A stretch of DNA of 64,000 nt from a virus. Below the pieces are notes generated by a model. It searched no databases, was not told where the DNA came from, and saw only the letters and a list, made by a program, of their open reading frames with translations. Of the stretch, positions 1,655-5,488 are shown piece by piece. Within the stretch, counting starts at the first letter, position 1. Every line of letters starts with the position of its first letter. The stretch covers positions 1-64,000 of IMG/VR virus record IMGVR_UViG_3300027963_000041; one strand, written 5' to 3'. The position numbers and the translations under genes were made by a program.

Positions 1655-1746
1655 GCCTCCATAGTTTAAGGGTAAAACGGCGGATTTATATCCCGTAAGC
1701 AACAGATAATTGGTTCATGTAGGTTCGAATCCTGCTGGAGGTACCA
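1655..1746 (+). tRNA. tRNA with TAT anticodon (nominal Ile) and a long variable arm
   Basis: Acceptor GCCTCCA/TGGAGGT; anticodon loop TT-TAT-AT; ~22-nt variable region; canonical T arm; ACCA. Confidence 0.8.
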
Positions 1747-2191: not shown

Positions 2192-2220
2192 TTGACATTT
2201 ACATAGATACCTGATACAAT
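2192..2220 (+). promoter_or_regulatory. sigma70-type promoter for the ncRNA-DUF2828 operon
   Basis: TTGACA-17-TACAAT with an extended -10 TG. Confidence 0.85.
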
Positions 2221-2240: not shown

Positions 2241-2463
2241 GGGTTGGATTCAGCAATCTTTAACATAAAACGCTAAAGAACTGTCTTCTACAGGAGGACC
2301 ACCGCAAGGTGTGTAATTACGGAGACTAGAGAGTAAACTCGAATTAAATCTGACGCTGGAAAGACAGACAAGATGATGGTAGCCCATCTGATTACGGTAG
2401 GGTTTTTTTATCCGAAAGGAAGTACCGTGGTTTAAGAACCGATAATACTTACCCGACCAACCC
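2241..2463 (+). ncRNA. candidate structured RNA, unit 1 (closing stem + TTCAGCAA)
   Basis: GGGTTGG (2241-47) pairs with CCAACCC (2457-63); TTCAGCAA at 2249-56; internal GNRA hairpins CACC-GCAA-GGTG and TCC-GAAA-GGA. Confidence 0.7.
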
Positions 2464-2483: not shown

Positions 2484-2600
2484 TAGAATAGGTTCAGCAA
2501 CAAATTCAAACAGGCTTCAAGCCTGTTATACTTGGTCCGTTTCGGCGGACGACATGAGTTTCGAGTTCTCATGTAAATCAAAAAGAAGAAAACTATTCTG
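2484..2600 (+). ncRNA. candidate structured RNA, unit 2
   Basis: TAGAATAG/CTATTCTG closing stem; TTCAGCAA at 2493-2500; three internal hairpins, one with a UUCG loop. Confidence 0.7.
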
Positions 2601-2618
2601 TTTTATCATGAAAGATTT

Positions 2619-2680
2619 TAGGTTAAGTTCAGCAAACTAAAAGCATTCAACTTGTAATTGAAAACGCAAAAATTAACCTG
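2619..2680 (+). ncRNA. candidate structured RNA, unit 3, with an anticodon-like hairpin
   Basis: TAGGTTAA/TTAACCTG closing stem; TTCAGCAA at 2628-35; inner hairpin TTCAA-CTTGTAA-TTGAA. Confidence 0.7.
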
Positions 2681-2701
2681 TTGTATTAAAGGAGTTATAC
2701 T

Positions 2702-4123
2702 ATGACAACATTTGTAGACGCAATAGTAAACCAAGAAGCCCGTACCGAGAATGGTATGAAGGCTCGTAAGTCAACCGCGAATGCAGTTGTAGACTTGTTC
2801 TATAACGCTGGCGCTTCTCGCGGTAAGAATATTGTGCCAGCATTTACTGCCGCAATGGCAGAGAACCGTGACCTTGCATTGCGTGTAGCCGCATGGCTTC
2901 GTGATGCCCGCGGTGGTGCTGGTGAACGCCAGTTGTTCCGCGACATTCTTGTGCATCTTGAGAAGACAGACCCTAATGCCGCAAAAGCATTACTCAAGAA
3001 AGTGCCTGAATTAGGTCGTTGGGATGACTTGTTTATCTTCAAGTCTAAAGAGTTGAAGAATGAAGCATACACTATGCTTGGTGATGCCTTGCGCCAGCGC
3101 AATGGACTTGCCGCAAAGTGGACACCTCGTCAAGGTCCTATCGCCGTAGAGATTCGTAATTTCTTCGGCATGTCTCCAAAGTTCTATCGTAAGTCTTTGG
3201 TCGAAATGACTAAAGTTGTAGAACAAAACATGTGTGCAAACACATGGGATGACATTAACTTTTCTCATGTACCTTCTGTTGCGTCTGCACGTTACAAGAA
3301 AGCATTCAACCGCAATACTGAAAAGTATGCAGAGTATGTTGCTTCCCTTGTGAAAGGCGACAATCCAGAAGTAAAGGTAAATGCATCCGTTGCATATCCA
3401 TACGATGTACTGAAAGGTCGCATCGGTGCATATGGAGTTACTTTTGACAAGACCGAATTGGACTTGATTCAAAAGCAATGGGAAGCATTGCCTAACTATG
3501 TTGGTGATGCAAGCATTCTACCTTTGGTAGATGTATCTGGCTCTATGACTACTTTAGCAGGAAAGAACACAAAACTTTCTTGCCTTGAAGTGGCAGTCTC
3601 TCTTGGTCTGTATCTTGCAGACAAGAACGCAGGTAAGTTCAAGGATACGTTCCTGACTTTCTCTGCAAAGCCAGAGTTGTTACACTTGAAGGGTAACATC
3701 AACCAGAAGATTGATCAAATGATTAAATCTAAATGGGATATGAACACTAACCTTCATGCCGCATTCAACAAGATTCTTGATGTTGCGGTGAAAGGCAATG
3801 TGCCACAAGAAGAAATGCCATCAATGGTATTGATTCTGTCTGACATGCAGTTTGACCAATGCGTAAAGCATGATAACTCTGCAATCGAAATGATTGAACG
3901 CAAGTATGAAGCCGCAGGATACAAAGTGCCACAAGTGGTGTTTTGGAATCTCAATGCATCATACGGTAACGCGCCAGTTAAGTTCGATAAGACTGGTACT
4001 GCGCTAGTGTCTGGATTCTCTCCAGCAATTGTGAAGCCACTCCTGTCGGGAGACATTGATAACTTCACGCCAGTATCGATCATGCTGAAAACCATCATGC
4101 AAGATCGTTACGCAGTTCTTTAA
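2702..4123 (+). CDS. DUF2828 family protein (Ro60/TROVE-like helical domain + C-terminal vWA)
   Basis: N-terminal TENG, RDxRGGxGER, GRWDD and AKWxPR motifs; MIDAS DVSGSM, SDMQFD and VFWNL; AAGGAG RBS. Confidence 0.85.
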   Translation: MTTFVDAIVNQEARTENGMKARKSTANAVVDLFYNAGASRGKNIVPAFTAAMAENRDLALRVAAWLRDARGGAGERQLFRDILVHLEKTDPNAAKALLKKVPELGRWDDLFIFKSKELKNEAYTMLGDALRQRNGLAAKWTPRQGPIAVEIRNFFGMSPKFYRKSLVEMTKVVEQNMCANTWDDINFSHVPSVASARYKKAFNRNTEKYAEYVASLVKGDNPEVKVNASVAYPYDVLKGRIGAYGVTFDKTELDLIQKQWEALPNYVGDASILPLVDVSGSMTTLAGKNTKLSCLEVAVSLGLYLADKNAGKFKDTFLTFSAKPELLHLKGNINQKIDQMIKSKWDMNTNLHAAFNKILDVAVKGNVPQEEMPSMVLILSDMQFDQCVKHDNSAIEMIERKYEAAGYKVPQVVFWNLNASYGNAPVKFDKTGTALVSGFSPAIVKPLLSGDIDNFTPVSIMLKTIMQDRYAVL

Positions 4124-4131
4124 TTAGAACG

Positions 4132-4155
4132 ATGAGGATTCGAAAGAGTCCTCAT
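4132..4155 (+). terminator. hairpin after the DUF2828 gene (terminator or processing site)
   Basis: ATGAGGATTC-GAAA-GAGTCCTCAT. Confidence 0.55.
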
Positions 4156-4283: not shown

Positions 4284-4357
4284 GCGGGTATGATGTAATG
4301 GTAACCTGAAACCTTGCCAAGGTTTACTCGCGAGTTCGATTCTCGCTACCCGCTCCA
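4284..4357 (+). tRNA. tRNA-Gly(GCC)
   Basis: Anticodon arm AAACC-TTGCCAA-GGTTT; TCCA. Confidence 0.93.
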
Positions 4358-4361
4358 ATTA

Positions 4362-4453
4362 GGTGAGATGCCCGAGAGGCCTAAGGGAGAAGTTTGCTAA
4401 ACTTTCGATTCACGAAAGTGGGTCCGTGGGTTCGAATCCCACTCTCACCACCA
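4362..4453 (+). tRNA. tRNA-Ser(GCT)
   Basis: Anticodon loop TT-GCT-AA; long variable arm; CCA. Confidence 0.92.
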
Positions 4454-4482
4454 TTGACAATCTTGCGAGGTACTGTTATAAT
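4454..4482 (+). promoter_or_regulatory. consensus sigma70 promoter
   Basis: TTGACA-17-TATAAT with a TG extension. Confidence 0.88.
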
Positions 4483-4489
4483 GAGTTAC

Positions 4490-4566
4490 GCGGATATGAT
4501 GGAATCGGTATACATATCAGACTTAAAATCTGAGTTTTGTGGGTTCGAGTCCCACTATCCGTACCA
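4490..4566 (+). tRNA. tRNA-Leu(TAA), short variable loop
   Basis: Anticodon arm TCAGA-CTTAAAA-TCTGA; variable loop GTTTT; ACCA. Confidence 0.9.
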
Positions 4567-4585: not shown

Positions 4586-5488
4586 ATGAGAATTGCAGTC
4601 TGTTCGGACATTCATCTTGAATTTGGTCCCATAGAATTAAAGAATACTGATAACGCTGACGTACTTATACTGTCTGGCGATATTTGCGTTGCTAAAGATT
4701 TGATGGAACGCGATAGTTATAATATTCGTGGTGATCATGATCGTTCAAACAAATATCACACCTTCTTTGAAGTTTGTGGTGTAGAGTTTCCTAAAGTCAT
4801 TTACATCATGGGTAATCATGAACACTACAATGGTGACTATGCCATTACGCATCGTGTTCTCAAAGAGCGCCTTGGCTACATCAAGAATCTTCATATTCTA
4901 GATAAAGAAACAGTTCGTATTGGCGAAGTGACTTTCATTGGTGGTACTCTTTGGACTGATATGAACAAAGAAGACCCCATGACTTTGCATAGCATTCGCA
5001 GAATGATGAATGACTTCCGTTGTGTAGAGAATAGTAACAACATGGTTTCATACAAAGTTCCCGAGTATGCGAAACTTGATAATGGTGAAATAGATTACTC
5101 AAATGTTGTGAAGACTACGTTCAAAGAGCGTCCTGCAACATTCACGCCTGAAGATGCGGTTGTAGATCACAAAGCAATGGTTGAATTCATTCGTCAAACA
5201 ATCGCTGAGAATCCTACGGATAAGTATGTTGTTGTTGGGCATCATGCGCCAAGCCGTACGTCAACCCATCCTCGTTATGCAAGAGAAGAATTGATGAATG
5301 GTGGATATAGTTCTAGTCTAGATGAATTTATTTTAGATAATTCTCAAATTAAACTGTGGACTCATGGACATACGCACGAAGACTTTGATTATATGATTGG
5401 TAGCACAAGAGTTGTTTGCAACCCTCGTGGCTATATCAACTACGAAGGTCGCGCAGATCATTTTGAATTAAAAACTTTTGAAATTTAA
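4586..5488 (+). CDS. calcineurin-like metallophosphoesterase
   Basis: SDIH, GD, GNHE, HH and HGHTH motifs; AAGGA RBS before ATG 4586. Confidence 0.9.
   Translation: MRIAVCSDIHLEFGPIELKNTDNADVLILSGDICVAKDLMERDSYNIRGDHDRSNKYHTFFEVCGVEFPKVIYIMGNHEHYNGDYAITHRVLKERLGYIKNLHILDKETVRIGEVTFIGGTLWTDMNKEDPMTLHSIRRMMNDFRCVENSNNMVSYKVPEYAKLDNGEIDYSNVVKTTFKERPATFTPEDAVVDHKAMVEFIRQTIAENPTDKYVVVGHHAPSRTSTHPRYAREELMNGGYSSSLDEFILDNSQIKLWTHGHTHEDFDYMIGSTRVVCNPRGYINYEGRADHFELKTFEI

What the first reader, a model, noticed from the sequence alone, without database searches (positions are those of the whole stretch)
2643..2710. Anticodon stem-loop mimic (UGU, Thr) just upstream of a gene that starts ATG-ACA-ACA
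Seen: unit 3 holds a 5-bp stem with a 7-nt loop, TTCAA-CT-TGT-AA-TTGAA (2646-2662). This is exact anticodon-arm geometry with C32, U33, A37 and A38. The downstream gene begins with two ACA codons, the codon read by UGU, and no tRNA-Thr(UGU) is present in this window. Unit 2 has a similar hairpin whose loop can be read CT-TCA-AG (2509-2527). Inference: a decoy or sensor for anticodon nucleases or modification enzymes, or a synthetase-binding operator like the E. coli thrS leader. The ACA-ACA match could be chance.
Basis: partly seen in the sequence, partly recalled or inferred. Interest (0 to 1): 0.7.

Follow-up and report, generated by a model that had tools for sequence, protein, structure and literature searches.

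The report
Anticodon-arm look-alike on phage Y-like RNA
The hairpin is real and built like a tRNA anticodon arm, but it is the tip of a small conserved RNA that travels with a Ro60-like phage protein, and it has no special link to threonine or to the ACA codons of the next gene.

Summary
The hairpin TTCAA-CTTGTAA-TTGAA (2646-2662) exists. Alone it has no folding energy. It is the apical arm of a 62-nt "mini" RNA (2619-2683): an 8-bp closing stem (UAGGUUAA/UUAACCUG), the motif GUUCAGCAA, and a CUGUU tail. It is the third of three such units in front of a gene whose predicted fold matches Ro60.

In 80 related phage loci the closing stem and the apical stem covary. The anticodon-loop frame is kept (5-bp stem, 7-nt loop, C32 77%, U33 87%, A37 87%, A38 90%), far above shuffled controls. 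The middle triplet drifts (16 types).

The triplet does not track codons 2-3 of the gene. The identical module also sits between tRNA genes, kilobases from the gene. Relatives with the same loop carry tRNA-Thr(UGU). Unit 2's supposed second mimic is not conserved.

Some relatives have a T-arm/hairpin/D-arm module (YrlA order) in place of the mini arm.

Best reading: a Y-RNA-like partner of the Ro60-like protein that displays a generic anticodon-arm look-alike. It is not a Thr sensor or a thrS-type operator. Function is inferred, not shown.

No Rfam family reaches threshold; the handle resembles Dictyostelium Class I RNAs.

The scan has noted this RNA-protein pairing before on other DNA (AI notes).

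The parts
2192..2220 (+). Sigma-70-like promoter (TTGACA-17-TACAAT, TG-extended) ahead of the three units
   Evidence: 11 of 12 consensus matches. Inferred to drive units 1-3 and the Ro60-like gene. No expression data.
2241..2463 (+). Unit 1, large member of the family (closing stem GGGUUGG/CCAACCC, then AUUCAGCAA)
   Evidence: The same unit is seen in L001, L003 and L043. Model R1 did not reach it.
2484..2603 (+). Unit 2 (closing stem UAGAAUAG/CUAUUCUG, GUUCAGCAA, three inner hairpins)
   Evidence: Fold z = -4.2. R1 hit of 31 bits. Homologue alignment A5.
2619..2683 (+). Unit 3, the mini RNA that carries the hairpin of the finding
   Evidence: R1 hit of 75.3 bits, E 3e-15. Homologous units found in 61 sources.
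2619..2626 (+). 5' strand of the closing stem (UAGGUUAA); pairs with 2673-2680
   Evidence: 99.4% paired in 42 sequences, 5 of 8 pairs with compensatory changes, slid controls 21-43%.
2627..2635 (+). Conserved unpaired motif GUUCAGCAA, the presumed protein-contact part of the handle
   Evidence: C12, G14, C15 and A16 are invariant in A1. The only two exact matches in the window's 64 kb are those of units 2 and 3, and unit 1 carries a one-mismatch copy, ATTCAGCAA.
2643..2667 (+). Extended apical arm: G2643-C2667 and C2644-G2666 flank a 1x3 internal loop below the 5-bp stem
   Evidence: MFE of 2643-2710. GC/GC is replaced by UAC/GUA in L042, L011, L028 and L021.
2646..2662 (+). Anticodon-arm look-alike: 5-bp stem UUCAA/UUGAA, 7-nt loop CUUGUAA
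   Evidence: The loop is identical to that of real tRNA-Thr(UGU) genes of related phages.
2673..2680 (+). 3' strand of the closing stem (UUAACCUG)
2681..2684 (+). Conserved 3' tail (UUGU; ...CUGUUG in most units)
   Evidence: Class I RNAs have a comparable CUGU end.
2702..4123 (+). Ro60-like protein gene (DUF2828 + DUF7788; helical ring plus vWA domain)
   Evidence: Pfam. phrog_850 'RNA-binding protein', 1e-141. The predicted fold's 13 best PDB matches are all Ro60.

Best explanation
The hairpin is the apical arm of a roughly 62-nt small RNA (unit 3, 2619-2683). This RNA belongs to a phage family of stem-closed RNAs that share one 'handle': an 8-bp closing stem U-A-G-R-NNNN / NNNN-Y-C-U-G, the unpaired motif (G)UUCAGCAA directly after the 5' strand, an A-rich 3' side, and a CUGUU tail.

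These RNAs accompany a Ro60-like ring protein and lie in or beside the phage's tRNA array.

The likely mechanism, by analogy with Ro60 and Y RNAs, is as follows. The handle docks on the Ro60-like protein. The variable apical module is what the particle displays to a third party. In larger family members this module is a T-arm, acceptor-like hairpin and D-arm, in the YrlA order. In the mini members, this one included, it is a hairpin built like a tRNA anticodon arm: 5-bp stem, 7-nt loop, C32-U33-NNN-A37-A38. It would act as a bait or tether for a factor that recognises anticodon loops, such as a modification enzyme, a nuclease or a repair factor.

The frame is what selection keeps. The triplet is free, so the element is not threonine-specific and does not read or sense the ACA codons of the gene.

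SHOWN: the family, the covarying stems, the conserved loop frame, the genomic contexts, and the Ro60-like fold.
INFERRED: binding to the protein, release as a separate RNA, and any interaction through the loop.
For: (1) Closing stem: 99.4% paired, 5 of 8 pairs compensatory, slid controls 21-43%. The same holds on 122 distinct units.
(2) Model R1 finds 127 units in 61 sources, all on the strand of the gene. In the 143-kb record, properly formed units occur only at 2241, 2485 and 2620.
(3) Apical arm in 66 distinct minis: 5-bp stem in 46, 7-nt loop in 39. Within the 7-nt loops: C32 30/39, U33 34/39, A37 34/39, A38 35/39, with 20 different stems and 16 triplets. Shuffled interiors give 4.8 hairpins against 41 observed, and 0.05 full frames against 24. 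All 5 apical pairs are compensatory.
(4) The phages' own tRNAs have the same frame (C32 62%, U33 99%, A37 93%, A38 80%). Their Thr, Lys, Arg, Ser, Tyr, Cys, Phe and Met loops are letter-identical to mini loops.
(5) 23 minis abut a tRNA gene within 30 nt, 9 of them on both sides. The identical TTCAA-CTTGTAA-TTGAA module sits in such slots in L010, L014, L023, L024 and L034. This points to a separate small RNA cut out with the tRNAs.
(6) In about 20 loci the gene-proximal unit carries GGUUCGAUUCC, a covarying hairpin and AGUGUAAUGGUAGCAC inside the same handle. Rfam YrlA matches L021:2874-2986 over its full length at 36 bits. It also matches beside the homologous gene of a mycobacteriophage at 39.8 bits.
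(7) Protein: the 13 best PDB fold matches are all Ro60, led by Thermus phage phiLo Ro60 at E 1.3e-8 and TM about 0.5.
(8) Precedent: phage Ro60 binds neighbouring Y-like RNAs (PMC12135203). YrlA is a tRNA mimic without an anticodon loop (10.1101/312249). D. radiodurans Yrn1 has an 'anticodon arm' with a 5-bp stem and a 6-nt loop (PMC4201824).
Against: There are no expression, end-mapping or binding data.

The arm is almost pure A/U, whereas real anticodon stems here are 59% GC. It has no predicted stability alone (MFE 0), and unit 3 is not more stable than shuffles. It would need a protein or stacking to form.

27 of 66 minis do not have a 7-nt loop. Twelve have 9 nt, often a 7-nt core flanked by an A-A or A-C mismatch.

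A37 and A38 lie in generally A-rich sequence.

The canonical Ro-binding motif GNCGAAN0-1G (PMC4201824) is absent, and no Rfam family reaches its threshold.

The protein model has moderate confidence (pLDDT 70, pTM 0.61). Sequence profiles do not reach Ro60 in the PDB.

The sequences compared are related, so the counts overstate independence.
Confidence: 0.55

Rival explanations
1. Cis-acting leader element. The gene-proximal unit is mainly a translational operator. The Ro60-like protein binds the handle, which ends 22 nt before the AUG and 10 nt before the Shine-Dalgarno sequence, and so limits its own synthesis. The apical hairpin would be a spacer. This could coexist with the best explanation.
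For: A unit ends within 40 nt of the start codon in 55 of 61 sources, mostly 12-25 nt away. In L036 and L040 the Shine-Dalgarno sequence follows the stem by 2-3 nt. The tail UGUUGU (2679-2684) can pair with ACAACA (2705-2710) and enclose the SD and AUG.
Against: The same minis, including the identical apical module, also occur between tRNA genes far from any start codon. In Felix O1-type phages and mycobacteriophages the units lie downstream of the gene. A spacer would not keep C32, U33, A37 and A38 while its stem turns over. The tail-to-codon helix is weak (z = 0.32).
Confidence: 0.2
2. Structural hairpin with no tRNA mimicry. The apical arm only stabilises the RNA or contacts the Ro60-like protein itself. 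Its resemblance to an anticodon loop is a coincidence of a U-turn-type 7-nt loop in A/U-rich sequence.
For: The stem is A/U-only and unlike real anticodon stems. 27 of 66 minis depart from the 7-nt loop. The interiors are A-rich, which favours A37/A38. Any C-U-NNN-A-A loop will equal some real anticodon loop.
Against: Composition alone predicts 0.05 full frames against 24 seen. Sister units in the same handle display undoubted tRNA parts, a T-loop and a D-arm, so display of tRNA parts is a theme of the family. Minis sit in tRNA-like slots of the arrays.
Confidence: 0.22
3. One reading: a tRNA-Thr(UGU) mimic that senses or regulates through ThrRS or through the two ACA codons, or that stands in for a missing tRNA-Thr(UGU).
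For: The loop CUUGUAA equals the loop of real phage tRNA-Thr(UGU) genes. The gene starts ATG-ACA-ACA. TGT is the commonest triplet (12 of 39).
Against: There are 16 different triplets and no association with codons 2-3. The identical module occurs away from the gene. L001, L004 and L056 have both the mimic and tRNA-Thr(UGU). The gene is not a synthetase.
Confidence: 0.02
4. Decayed tRNA genes. The minis are 'armless' remnants of tRNA genes in the array (acceptor-like stem plus anticodon arm) with no function of their own.
For: They have tRNA-like slots and spacing, a 7-8-bp closing stem, an anticodon-like arm, and UUCAGC, which resembles the CUCAGC of D-arms.
Against: The handle and stems are under clear purifying and compensatory selection across proteins of 65-95% identity. 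The same handle encloses non-tRNA-like and YrlA-like inserts that have their own D-arm. No D-stem can form in unit 3. The units co-occur with one protein family in distant phages.
Confidence: 0.03

Closest known systems
Ro60 (Rsr) with Y RNAs: bacterial and phage YrlA/YrlB (Rfam RF02553; Chen et al. 2014, PMC4201824), Thermus phage phiLo Ro60 with Yrl1/Yrl2 (PMC12135203)
   Same: Small RNAs encoded beside a Ro60-fold protein. The 5' and 3' ends pair into a stem. A conserved unpaired motif lies on the 5' side. A variable module sits at the far end, and in some members it is a tRNA-like T/acceptor/D domain in the YrlA order. There are several paralogous RNAs per locus.
   Different: The motif is UUCAGCAA, not GNCGAAN0-1G or CGAA. 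The protein is the DUF2828/DUF7788 type, which reaches Ro60 only by fold. No unit reaches the YrlA gathering score. YrlA lacks an anticodon loop, whereas the mini displays only an anticodon-arm look-alike. The units are embedded in tRNA arrays.
Class I RNAs of dictyostelid social amoebae (Rfam RF01414; Kjellin et al. 2021, PMC7919456)
   Same: About 60 nt and low GC. A short terminal stem with compensatory changes. A conserved motif directly after the 5' strand (Rfam consensus CUUACAGCAA; GUUCAGCAA here, UUACAGCAA in Felix O1-type phages). A variable interior, an A-run, and a 3' CUGU whose C pairs with an invariant 5' G. Full-length alignments to the Rfam model.
   Different: All scores are below the gathering score of 41.5: window 15.3 bits, pinkbiff 20.1 and 17.5, best 36.4 in L027. 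The host is a phage, not an amoeba. There is no DUSE promoter. The known Class I partner is the RRM protein Rnp1A, not a Ro60-like protein. No anticodon-like arm is described for Class I RNAs.
tRNA anticodon stem-loop and its known mimics (E. coli thrS operator; the 'anticodon arm' of D. radiodurans Yrn1, PMC4201824)
   Same: 5-bp stem and 7-nt loop with C32, U33, A37 and A38. The loop sequence is identical to real anticodon loops of the same phage group.
   Different: The stem is A/U-only with no stability of its own. There is no tRNA body around it. The triplet is not conserved. It is not in a synthetase leader. Yrn1's loop has 6 nt.
Ro60-like gp130 of E. coli phage Bas63 (PhageMaP preprint, PMC11482910)
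   Same: A Ro60-like gene next to a phage tRNA array. The authors suspected that some 'tRNAs' are Y RNAs. A related Felixounavirus (pinkbiff) has handle-bearing minis in its inter-tRNA gaps.
   Different: That work reports a counter-defence phenotype (against Ppl) for the protein only, and describes no RNA. Whether gp130 is the same family was not tested here on Bas63 itself.

Membership tests
Y RNA (Ro60 partner RNA, YrlA/YrlB type) | Encoded next to a Ro60-family protein gene | tested here: met
   Unit 3 ends 22 nt before a gene whose predicted fold matches Ro60 first (13 best PDB hits). phrog_850 'RNA-binding protein'.
Y RNA (Ro60 partner RNA, YrlA/YrlB type) | 5' and 3' ends pair into a conserved stem | tested here: met
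   99.4% paired, 5 of 8 pairs compensatory. Same on 122 units.
Y RNA (Ro60 partner RNA, YrlA/YrlB type) | Ro-binding motif GNCGAAN0-1G (bacteria) or GGUCCGA (animals) near the 5' end | tested here: not met
   The motif in that position is (G)UUCAGCAA. Definition taken from PMC4201824.
Y RNA (Ro60 partner RNA, YrlA/YrlB type) | Reaches the Rfam RF02553 gathering score (69 bits) | tested here: not met
   No YrlA hit for the window's units. Related tRNA-like units score 36 bits (L021). Mycobacteriophage neighbour scores 39.8 bits.
Y RNA (Ro60 partner RNA, YrlA/YrlB type) | tRNA-like T / acceptor-like / D module | tested here: not met
   Absent from unit 3. Present in the gene-proximal unit of about 20 related loci within the same handle.
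Y RNA (Ro60 partner RNA, YrlA/YrlB type) | Physically bound by the Ro60 protein | not testable with these tools
   Needs EMSA or RIP.
tRNA anticodon stem-loop mimic | 5-bp stem closing a 7-nt loop | tested here: met
   Window 2646-2662. 5-bp stem in 46 of 66 and 7-nt loop in 39 of 66 distinct minis, against 4.8 hairpins expected.
tRNA anticodon stem-loop mimic | Y32, U33, R37, A38 frame | tested here: met
   C32 30/39, U33 34/39, A37 34/39, A38 35/39. Real phage tRNAs: 62%, 99%, 93%, 80%.
tRNA anticodon stem-loop mimic | Stem of tRNA-like stability | tested here: not met
   A/U-only stem with MFE 0. Real anticodon stems are 59% GC.
tRNA anticodon stem-loop mimic | U-turn conformation, and recognition by factors that bind anticodon loops | not testable with these tools
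   Needs probing, modification mapping and binding or cleavage assays.
Synthetase operator of the thrS type | Lies in the leader of the cognate synthetase gene | tested here: not met
   The gene is a Ro60-like protein.
Synthetase operator of the thrS type | Anticodon identity bases conserved | tested here: not met
   16 different triplets. No link to the first codons.
Dictyostelium Class I RNA (RF01414) | About 60 nt, short covarying terminal stem, 3' CUGU | tested here: met
   Definition from PMC7919456.
Dictyostelium Class I RNA (RF01414) | Conserved 11-nt motif next to the 5' strand | tested here: inconclusive
   GUUCAGCAA against the Rfam consensus CUUACAGCAA. CAGCAA is shared, and the rest is only partly shared.
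Dictyostelium Class I RNA (RF01414) | Reaches the Rfam gathering score (41.5 bits) | tested here: not met
   Window 15.3 bits. pinkbiff 20.1 and 17.5. Best 36.4 at L027:348-400.

The most novel reading that the evidence does not exclude
The mini RNAs are exchangeable anticodon-arm baits mounted on a Ro60-like ring. Phages use them in the conflict over tRNAs, to intercept, titrate or report host factors that cut or modify anticodon loops. The triplet is swapped between related phages to follow the host's weapon. The same handle (stem plus CAGCAA plus CUGU) as in Dictyostelium Class I RNAs would then mark one ancient RNP class, shared by phages and amoebae, whose partner protein is the DUF2828 type of Ro60.
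Probability: 0.12. Interest if true: 0.85.

Novelty: new variant of a known kind. Interest (0 to 1): 0.6.

Why it matters
Ro60 and its Y RNAs are a conserved but poorly understood RNA-surveillance particle. What the far end of a Y RNA recruits is known in only a few cases.

Here a large phage family offers a natural series of partner RNAs that share one handle and display different tRNA parts: the elbow in some, a bare anticodon-arm look-alike in others. If the loop is read by a tRNA-binding factor, this would be a compact, testable model of how Ro60-type particles choose their targets. It would also point to a possible new phage tactic against tRNA-directed defences; a Ro60-like gene of phage Bas63 already has a counter-defence phenotype (PMC11482910).

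Cultured relatives carry the same elements, so the question can be taken to the bench. Examples are Synechococcus phage BUCT-ZZ01 and Felix O1-type coliphages.

The resemblance of the handle to the orphan Class I RNAs of social amoebae, if real, would give those RNAs a candidate protein partner.

Tried and rejected
(1) Phage promoter repeat. Exact GTTCAGCAA occurs only at units 2 and 3 in the window's 64 kb, and the flanking stems covary, so this is RNA structure and not a DNA site.

(2) The promoter-like site at 2673-2701. Its -10 element abuts the ATG, so it cannot serve this gene.

(3) thrS-type operator and the ACA-codon link: rejected.

(4) A stand-in for a missing tRNA-Thr(UGU): rejected. 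My first guess, that the gene would lie just off the contig start, was also wrong in detail. Homology to L001 starts only at tRNA-Pro, so presence or absence in this phage is unknown.

(5) Unit 2 as a second anticodon mimic: rejected.

(6) UUCAGCAA as the 5' half of a D-arm, making the mini an armless tRNA. No D-stem can form, and the tRNA-like units have a separate D-arm.

(7) Mobile element with inverted repeats. All copies are in one orientation, at one locus type, and the arms covary rather than being conserved.

(8) Sequence searches of the protein against the PDB, single sequence and profile, found no Ro60. Only the fold search did.

(9) RNA-repair partners. No RtcB or Rnl2-type ligase is present in the 143-kb record. 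The Rnl1 search had no working control.

(10) Supplementary phage list of Chen et al. 2014: not held.
Full report
WHAT IS THERE

The window is the first 64 kb of a 143-kb virus record that is about 80% complete. Bases 46-2171 and 4284-4566 hold 15 tRNA genes.

Between them lie three things. The first is a strong sigma-70-like promoter at 2192-2220. The second is about 480 nt without a credible ORF. The third is a 473-codon gene at 2702-4123.

The hairpin of the finding is present exactly as described: TTCAA (2646-2650), CTTGTAA (2651-2657), TTGAA (2658-2662). The gene starts ATG-ACA-ACA. On its own the 17-mer has no predicted stability (MFE 0). The 71 nt around it fold no better than shuffles (z = -0.15). 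Energy therefore gives no support. The evidence has to come from comparison.

THE GENE

Pfam gives only DUF2828 plus DUF7788. PHROGs gives phrog_850, 'RNA-binding protein', at 1e-141. Sequence searches against the PDB, with the single sequence and with a 23-member profile, find no Ro60.

A predicted structure (pLDDT 70, pTM 0.61) does. Its 13 best PDB matches are all Ro60 proteins. They are led by Thermus phage phiLo Ro60 (E 1.3e-8, TM about 0.5, full length). D. radiodurans Rsr, Xenopus Ro60 and human Ro60 follow, and isolated vWA domains come only after them.

Homologues occur in 706 cultured-phage records. These include Felix O1-type coliphages, vibriophages, cyanophages, and mycobacteriophages, where the gene is annotated 'Ro-like RNA binding protein'.

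THE UNIT AROUND THE HAIRPIN

An inverted repeat encloses the hairpin. Eighty related loci, with proteins 65-95% identical, show what it is. Every locus carries two to four tandem units of one design:

- U-A-G-R-NNNN as the 5' strand;
- one to three bases, then CAGCAA, always starting 10 nt after the A of AG;
- a variable interior;
- an A-run;
- NNNN-Y-C-U-G as the 3' strand;
- a UU(G/A) tail.

In the window these units are 2241-2463, 2484-2603 and 2619-2683.

On 42 mini units the closing stem is 99.4% paired. Five of its eight pairs show compensatory double changes in up to four pair types. When the partner strand is slid by one to three columns, pairing falls to 21-43%.

A covariance model of the mini unit finds 127 copies in 61 sources, all on the strand of the gene. 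In the whole 143-kb record, properly formed units exist only at this locus. The exact motif GTTCAGCAA occurs nowhere else in the window's 64 kb. This is RNA structure. It is not a promoter repeat or a mobile element.

IS THE HAIRPIN AN ANTICODON-ARM LOOK-ALIKE?

They are.

Among 66 distinct minis, the best apical hairpin has a 5-bp stem in 46 and a 7-nt loop in 39. Within those loops C32 is present in 30, U33 in 34, A37 in 34 and A38 in 35. The stems take 20 different sequences and the middle triplet 16.

Shuffling each interior predicts 4.8 +/- 2.0 perfect 5-bp/7-nt hairpins, against 41 seen. It predicts 0.05 full frames, against 24 seen. The sequences are related, so these are not clean probabilities. 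Even so, 33 distinct 17-mers make chance or simple inheritance implausible.

On the model-based alignment, all five apical pairs show compensatory changes, with 91% pairing. That alignment was fitted to the model, which favours pairing.

The phages' own tRNAs (335 distinct anticodon arms from the same loci) have the same frame: C32 62%, U33 99%, A37 93%, A38 80%. Their Thr(UGU), Lys(UUU), Arg(UCU), Ser(GGA), Tyr(GUA), Cys(GCA), Phe(GAA), Ser(UGA) and Met(CAU) loops are letter-identical to loops found on minis.

The differences are real too. Mini stems are almost pure A/U, against 59% GC in real anticodon stems. In addition, 27 of 66 minis depart from the 7-nt loop.

In the window's own subfamily, two further pairs (G2643-C2667 and C2644-G2666) extend the arm across a 1x3 internal loop. 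They change to UAC/GUA in relatives.

WHAT FAILS

The threonine-specific reading does not survive.

- The triplet varies.
- TGT loops precede genes that start AAC-ACT or TCA-ACA, and other loops precede ACA-ACA.
- The identical module TTCAA-CTTGTAA-TTGAA also sits 0.9-2.8 kb from the gene in L010, L014, L023, L024 and L034. There it lies between two tRNA genes, with the loop about 36 nt after one and about 39 nt before the next.
- L001 (95% identical protein, same hairpin), L004 and L056 encode tRNA-Thr(UGU).
- In the window, homology to L001 begins only at tRNA-Pro, 45 nt from the contig start. The absence of that tRNA from an incomplete record therefore says nothing.
- Unit 2's hairpin folds as 8 bp plus a triloop. 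In homologues its loop is GAAA, TTCATT, TTCCAA and so on.

WHAT KIND OF RNA IS IT?

In about 20 loci the gene-proximal unit has, inside the same handle, an invariant T-loop (GGUUCGAUUCC), a covarying hairpin and a D-arm (AGUGUAAUGGUAGCAC). The order is T, acceptor-like, D. This is the order described for YrlA Y RNAs (PMC4201824; 10.1101/312249).

Rfam's YrlA model matches L021:2874-2986 over its full length (36 bits). It also matches the gap beside the homologous gene of a mycobacteriophage (39.8 bits). Both are below the gathering score of 69. The model fits the tRNA-like core and not the handle.

The canonical Ro-binding motif GNCGAAN0-1G is replaced here by UUCAGCAA in the same position. 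The family therefore works like, and is probably related to, Y RNAs. It fails two defining tests of YrlA membership.

Y-like RNAs beside phage Ro60 genes are on record, and binding has been shown for phage phiLo (PMC12135203).

Of the minis, 40 are gene-proximal. Another 23 abut a tRNA gene within 30 nt, nine of them on both sides. That fits release as separate small RNAs by tRNA processing. This last step is an inference.

A SECOND RESEMBLANCE

Earlier notes of this scan drew my attention to a hit that was already in my own. Rfam's Dictyostelium Class I RNA model (RF01414) matches the mini at L027:348-400 at 36.4 bits, against a gathering score of 41.5.

The window's unit 3 aligns over the whole model at 15.3 bits. 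The two minis of coliphage pinkbiff align at 20.1 and 17.5 bits.

The published definition of Class I RNAs fits the minis feature for feature (PMC7919456):

- about 60 nt;
- GC of 32-41%;
- a short covarying terminal stem;
- a conserved motif right after the 5' strand;
- a variable rest;
- a 3' CUGU whose C pairs with an invariant 5' G.

That paper found the class in no organism outside Dictyostelia. All scores here are below threshold. I therefore record an architectural match, not membership.

REACH

The model also hits Synechococcus phage BUCT-ZZ01 100 nt upstream of its Ro60-like gene, at 55 bits and with apical arm UUCAA-CUUUUAC-UUGAA. It also hits the inter-tRNA gaps just downstream of the Ro60-like gene of the Felixounavirus pinkbiff.

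For the related phage Bas63, a preprint reports that the Ro60-like gp130 counters the Ppl defence system. Its authors guessed that some neighbouring 'tRNAs' are Y RNAs (PMC11482910).

The window's phage has no RtcB or Rnl2-type ligase in the 143 kb held. An RNA-repair context has no support beyond the adjacent metallophosphoesterase.

HOW IT MOST LIKELY WORKS

- Shown: a conserved RNA family with a covarying handle; an apical arm whose anticodon-loop frame is under selection while the triplet is free; sister units that display other tRNA parts; constant association with a Ro60-fold protein.
- Inferred: the handle docks on the protein, as Y RNA stems do on Ro60. The apical arm is the displayed module that engages a factor recognising anticodon loops.
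- Not excluded: an added role of the gene-proximal copy as an autoregulatory operator, or a purely structural arm.

I put about 0.9 on the element being a member of this RNA family. I put about 0.6 on partnership with the Ro60-like protein, and about 0.35 on functional anticodon-arm mimicry.

VERDICT

The threonine, ACA and ThrRS interpretation is wrong.

The element is a new variant of the Ro60/Y-RNA kind. It is in no Rfam family, and I found it in none of the papers searched.

The scan's earlier notes describe the same pairing on many other genomes. Those are AI notes, and my scores rest on the tests above.

Noticed in passing
window 2553-2573: Unit 2's third hairpin, CAUGAG-UUUCGAGUU-CUCAUG, carries the motif GAGUUUCGA(G/A/U)UUC. 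The motif is nearly invariant in unit-2 homologues while the stem covaries. It looks like a T-loop with one extra U.
   Followed up: partly
window 2679-2684 with 2705-2710: The conserved tail UGUUGU can pair with codons 2-3 (ACAACA) and enclose the Shine-Dalgarno sequence and the AUG. Relatives show UGUUGA with UCAACA. The helix is weak (z = 0.32), and the apparent covariation may be only phylogenetic.
   Followed up: partly
L083:4718-4788 and 4884-4946 (Escherichia phage pinkbiff): Two handle-bearing minis (AGACCAA-UUA-CAGCAA... and AGACCGU-UUA-CAGCAA...) fill the gaps tRNA-Glu/tRNA-Met and tRNA-Met/tRNA-Asn, just after the Ro60-like gene. They are unannotated in the record.
   Followed up: partly
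L082:4581-4693 and 4711-4824 (Synechococcus phage BUCT-ZZ01): Two 113-114-nt matches to the Rfam tRNA model lie just downstream of the Ro60-like gene. They are much longer than a tRNA. They may be tRNA bodies inside a handle, or tRNAs with inserts. R1 also hits 4626-4757 weakly.
   Followed up: no
L021:2884-2900: In a YrlA-like unit, the hairpin just before the T-arm (UUCCG-CUUAUAA-CGGAG) also has the 5-bp/7-nt C-U-NNN-A-A frame. Rfam's tRNA model aligns it as an anticodon arm. This unit therefore carries anticodon-like arm plus T-arm in the normal tRNA order.
   Followed up: no
window 4013-4141: A loose pattern match (GGAUUCU...CCAGCAA with a complementary 3' strand followed by G) spans the end of the Ro60-like gene. 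It may be chance or a fourth unit.
   Followed up: no
window 1655-1746: ARAGORN calls a 92-nt tRNA-Ile with anticodon UAU, unusually long for an Ile tRNA.
   Followed up: no
L001:47-107: The nearest relative has a further mini (loop AUUGGA) ahead of tRNA-Asn, tRNA-Met and tRNA-Thr(UGU), upstream of the point where the window's contig begins. The window's phage may therefore have more units than the three seen.
   Followed up: no
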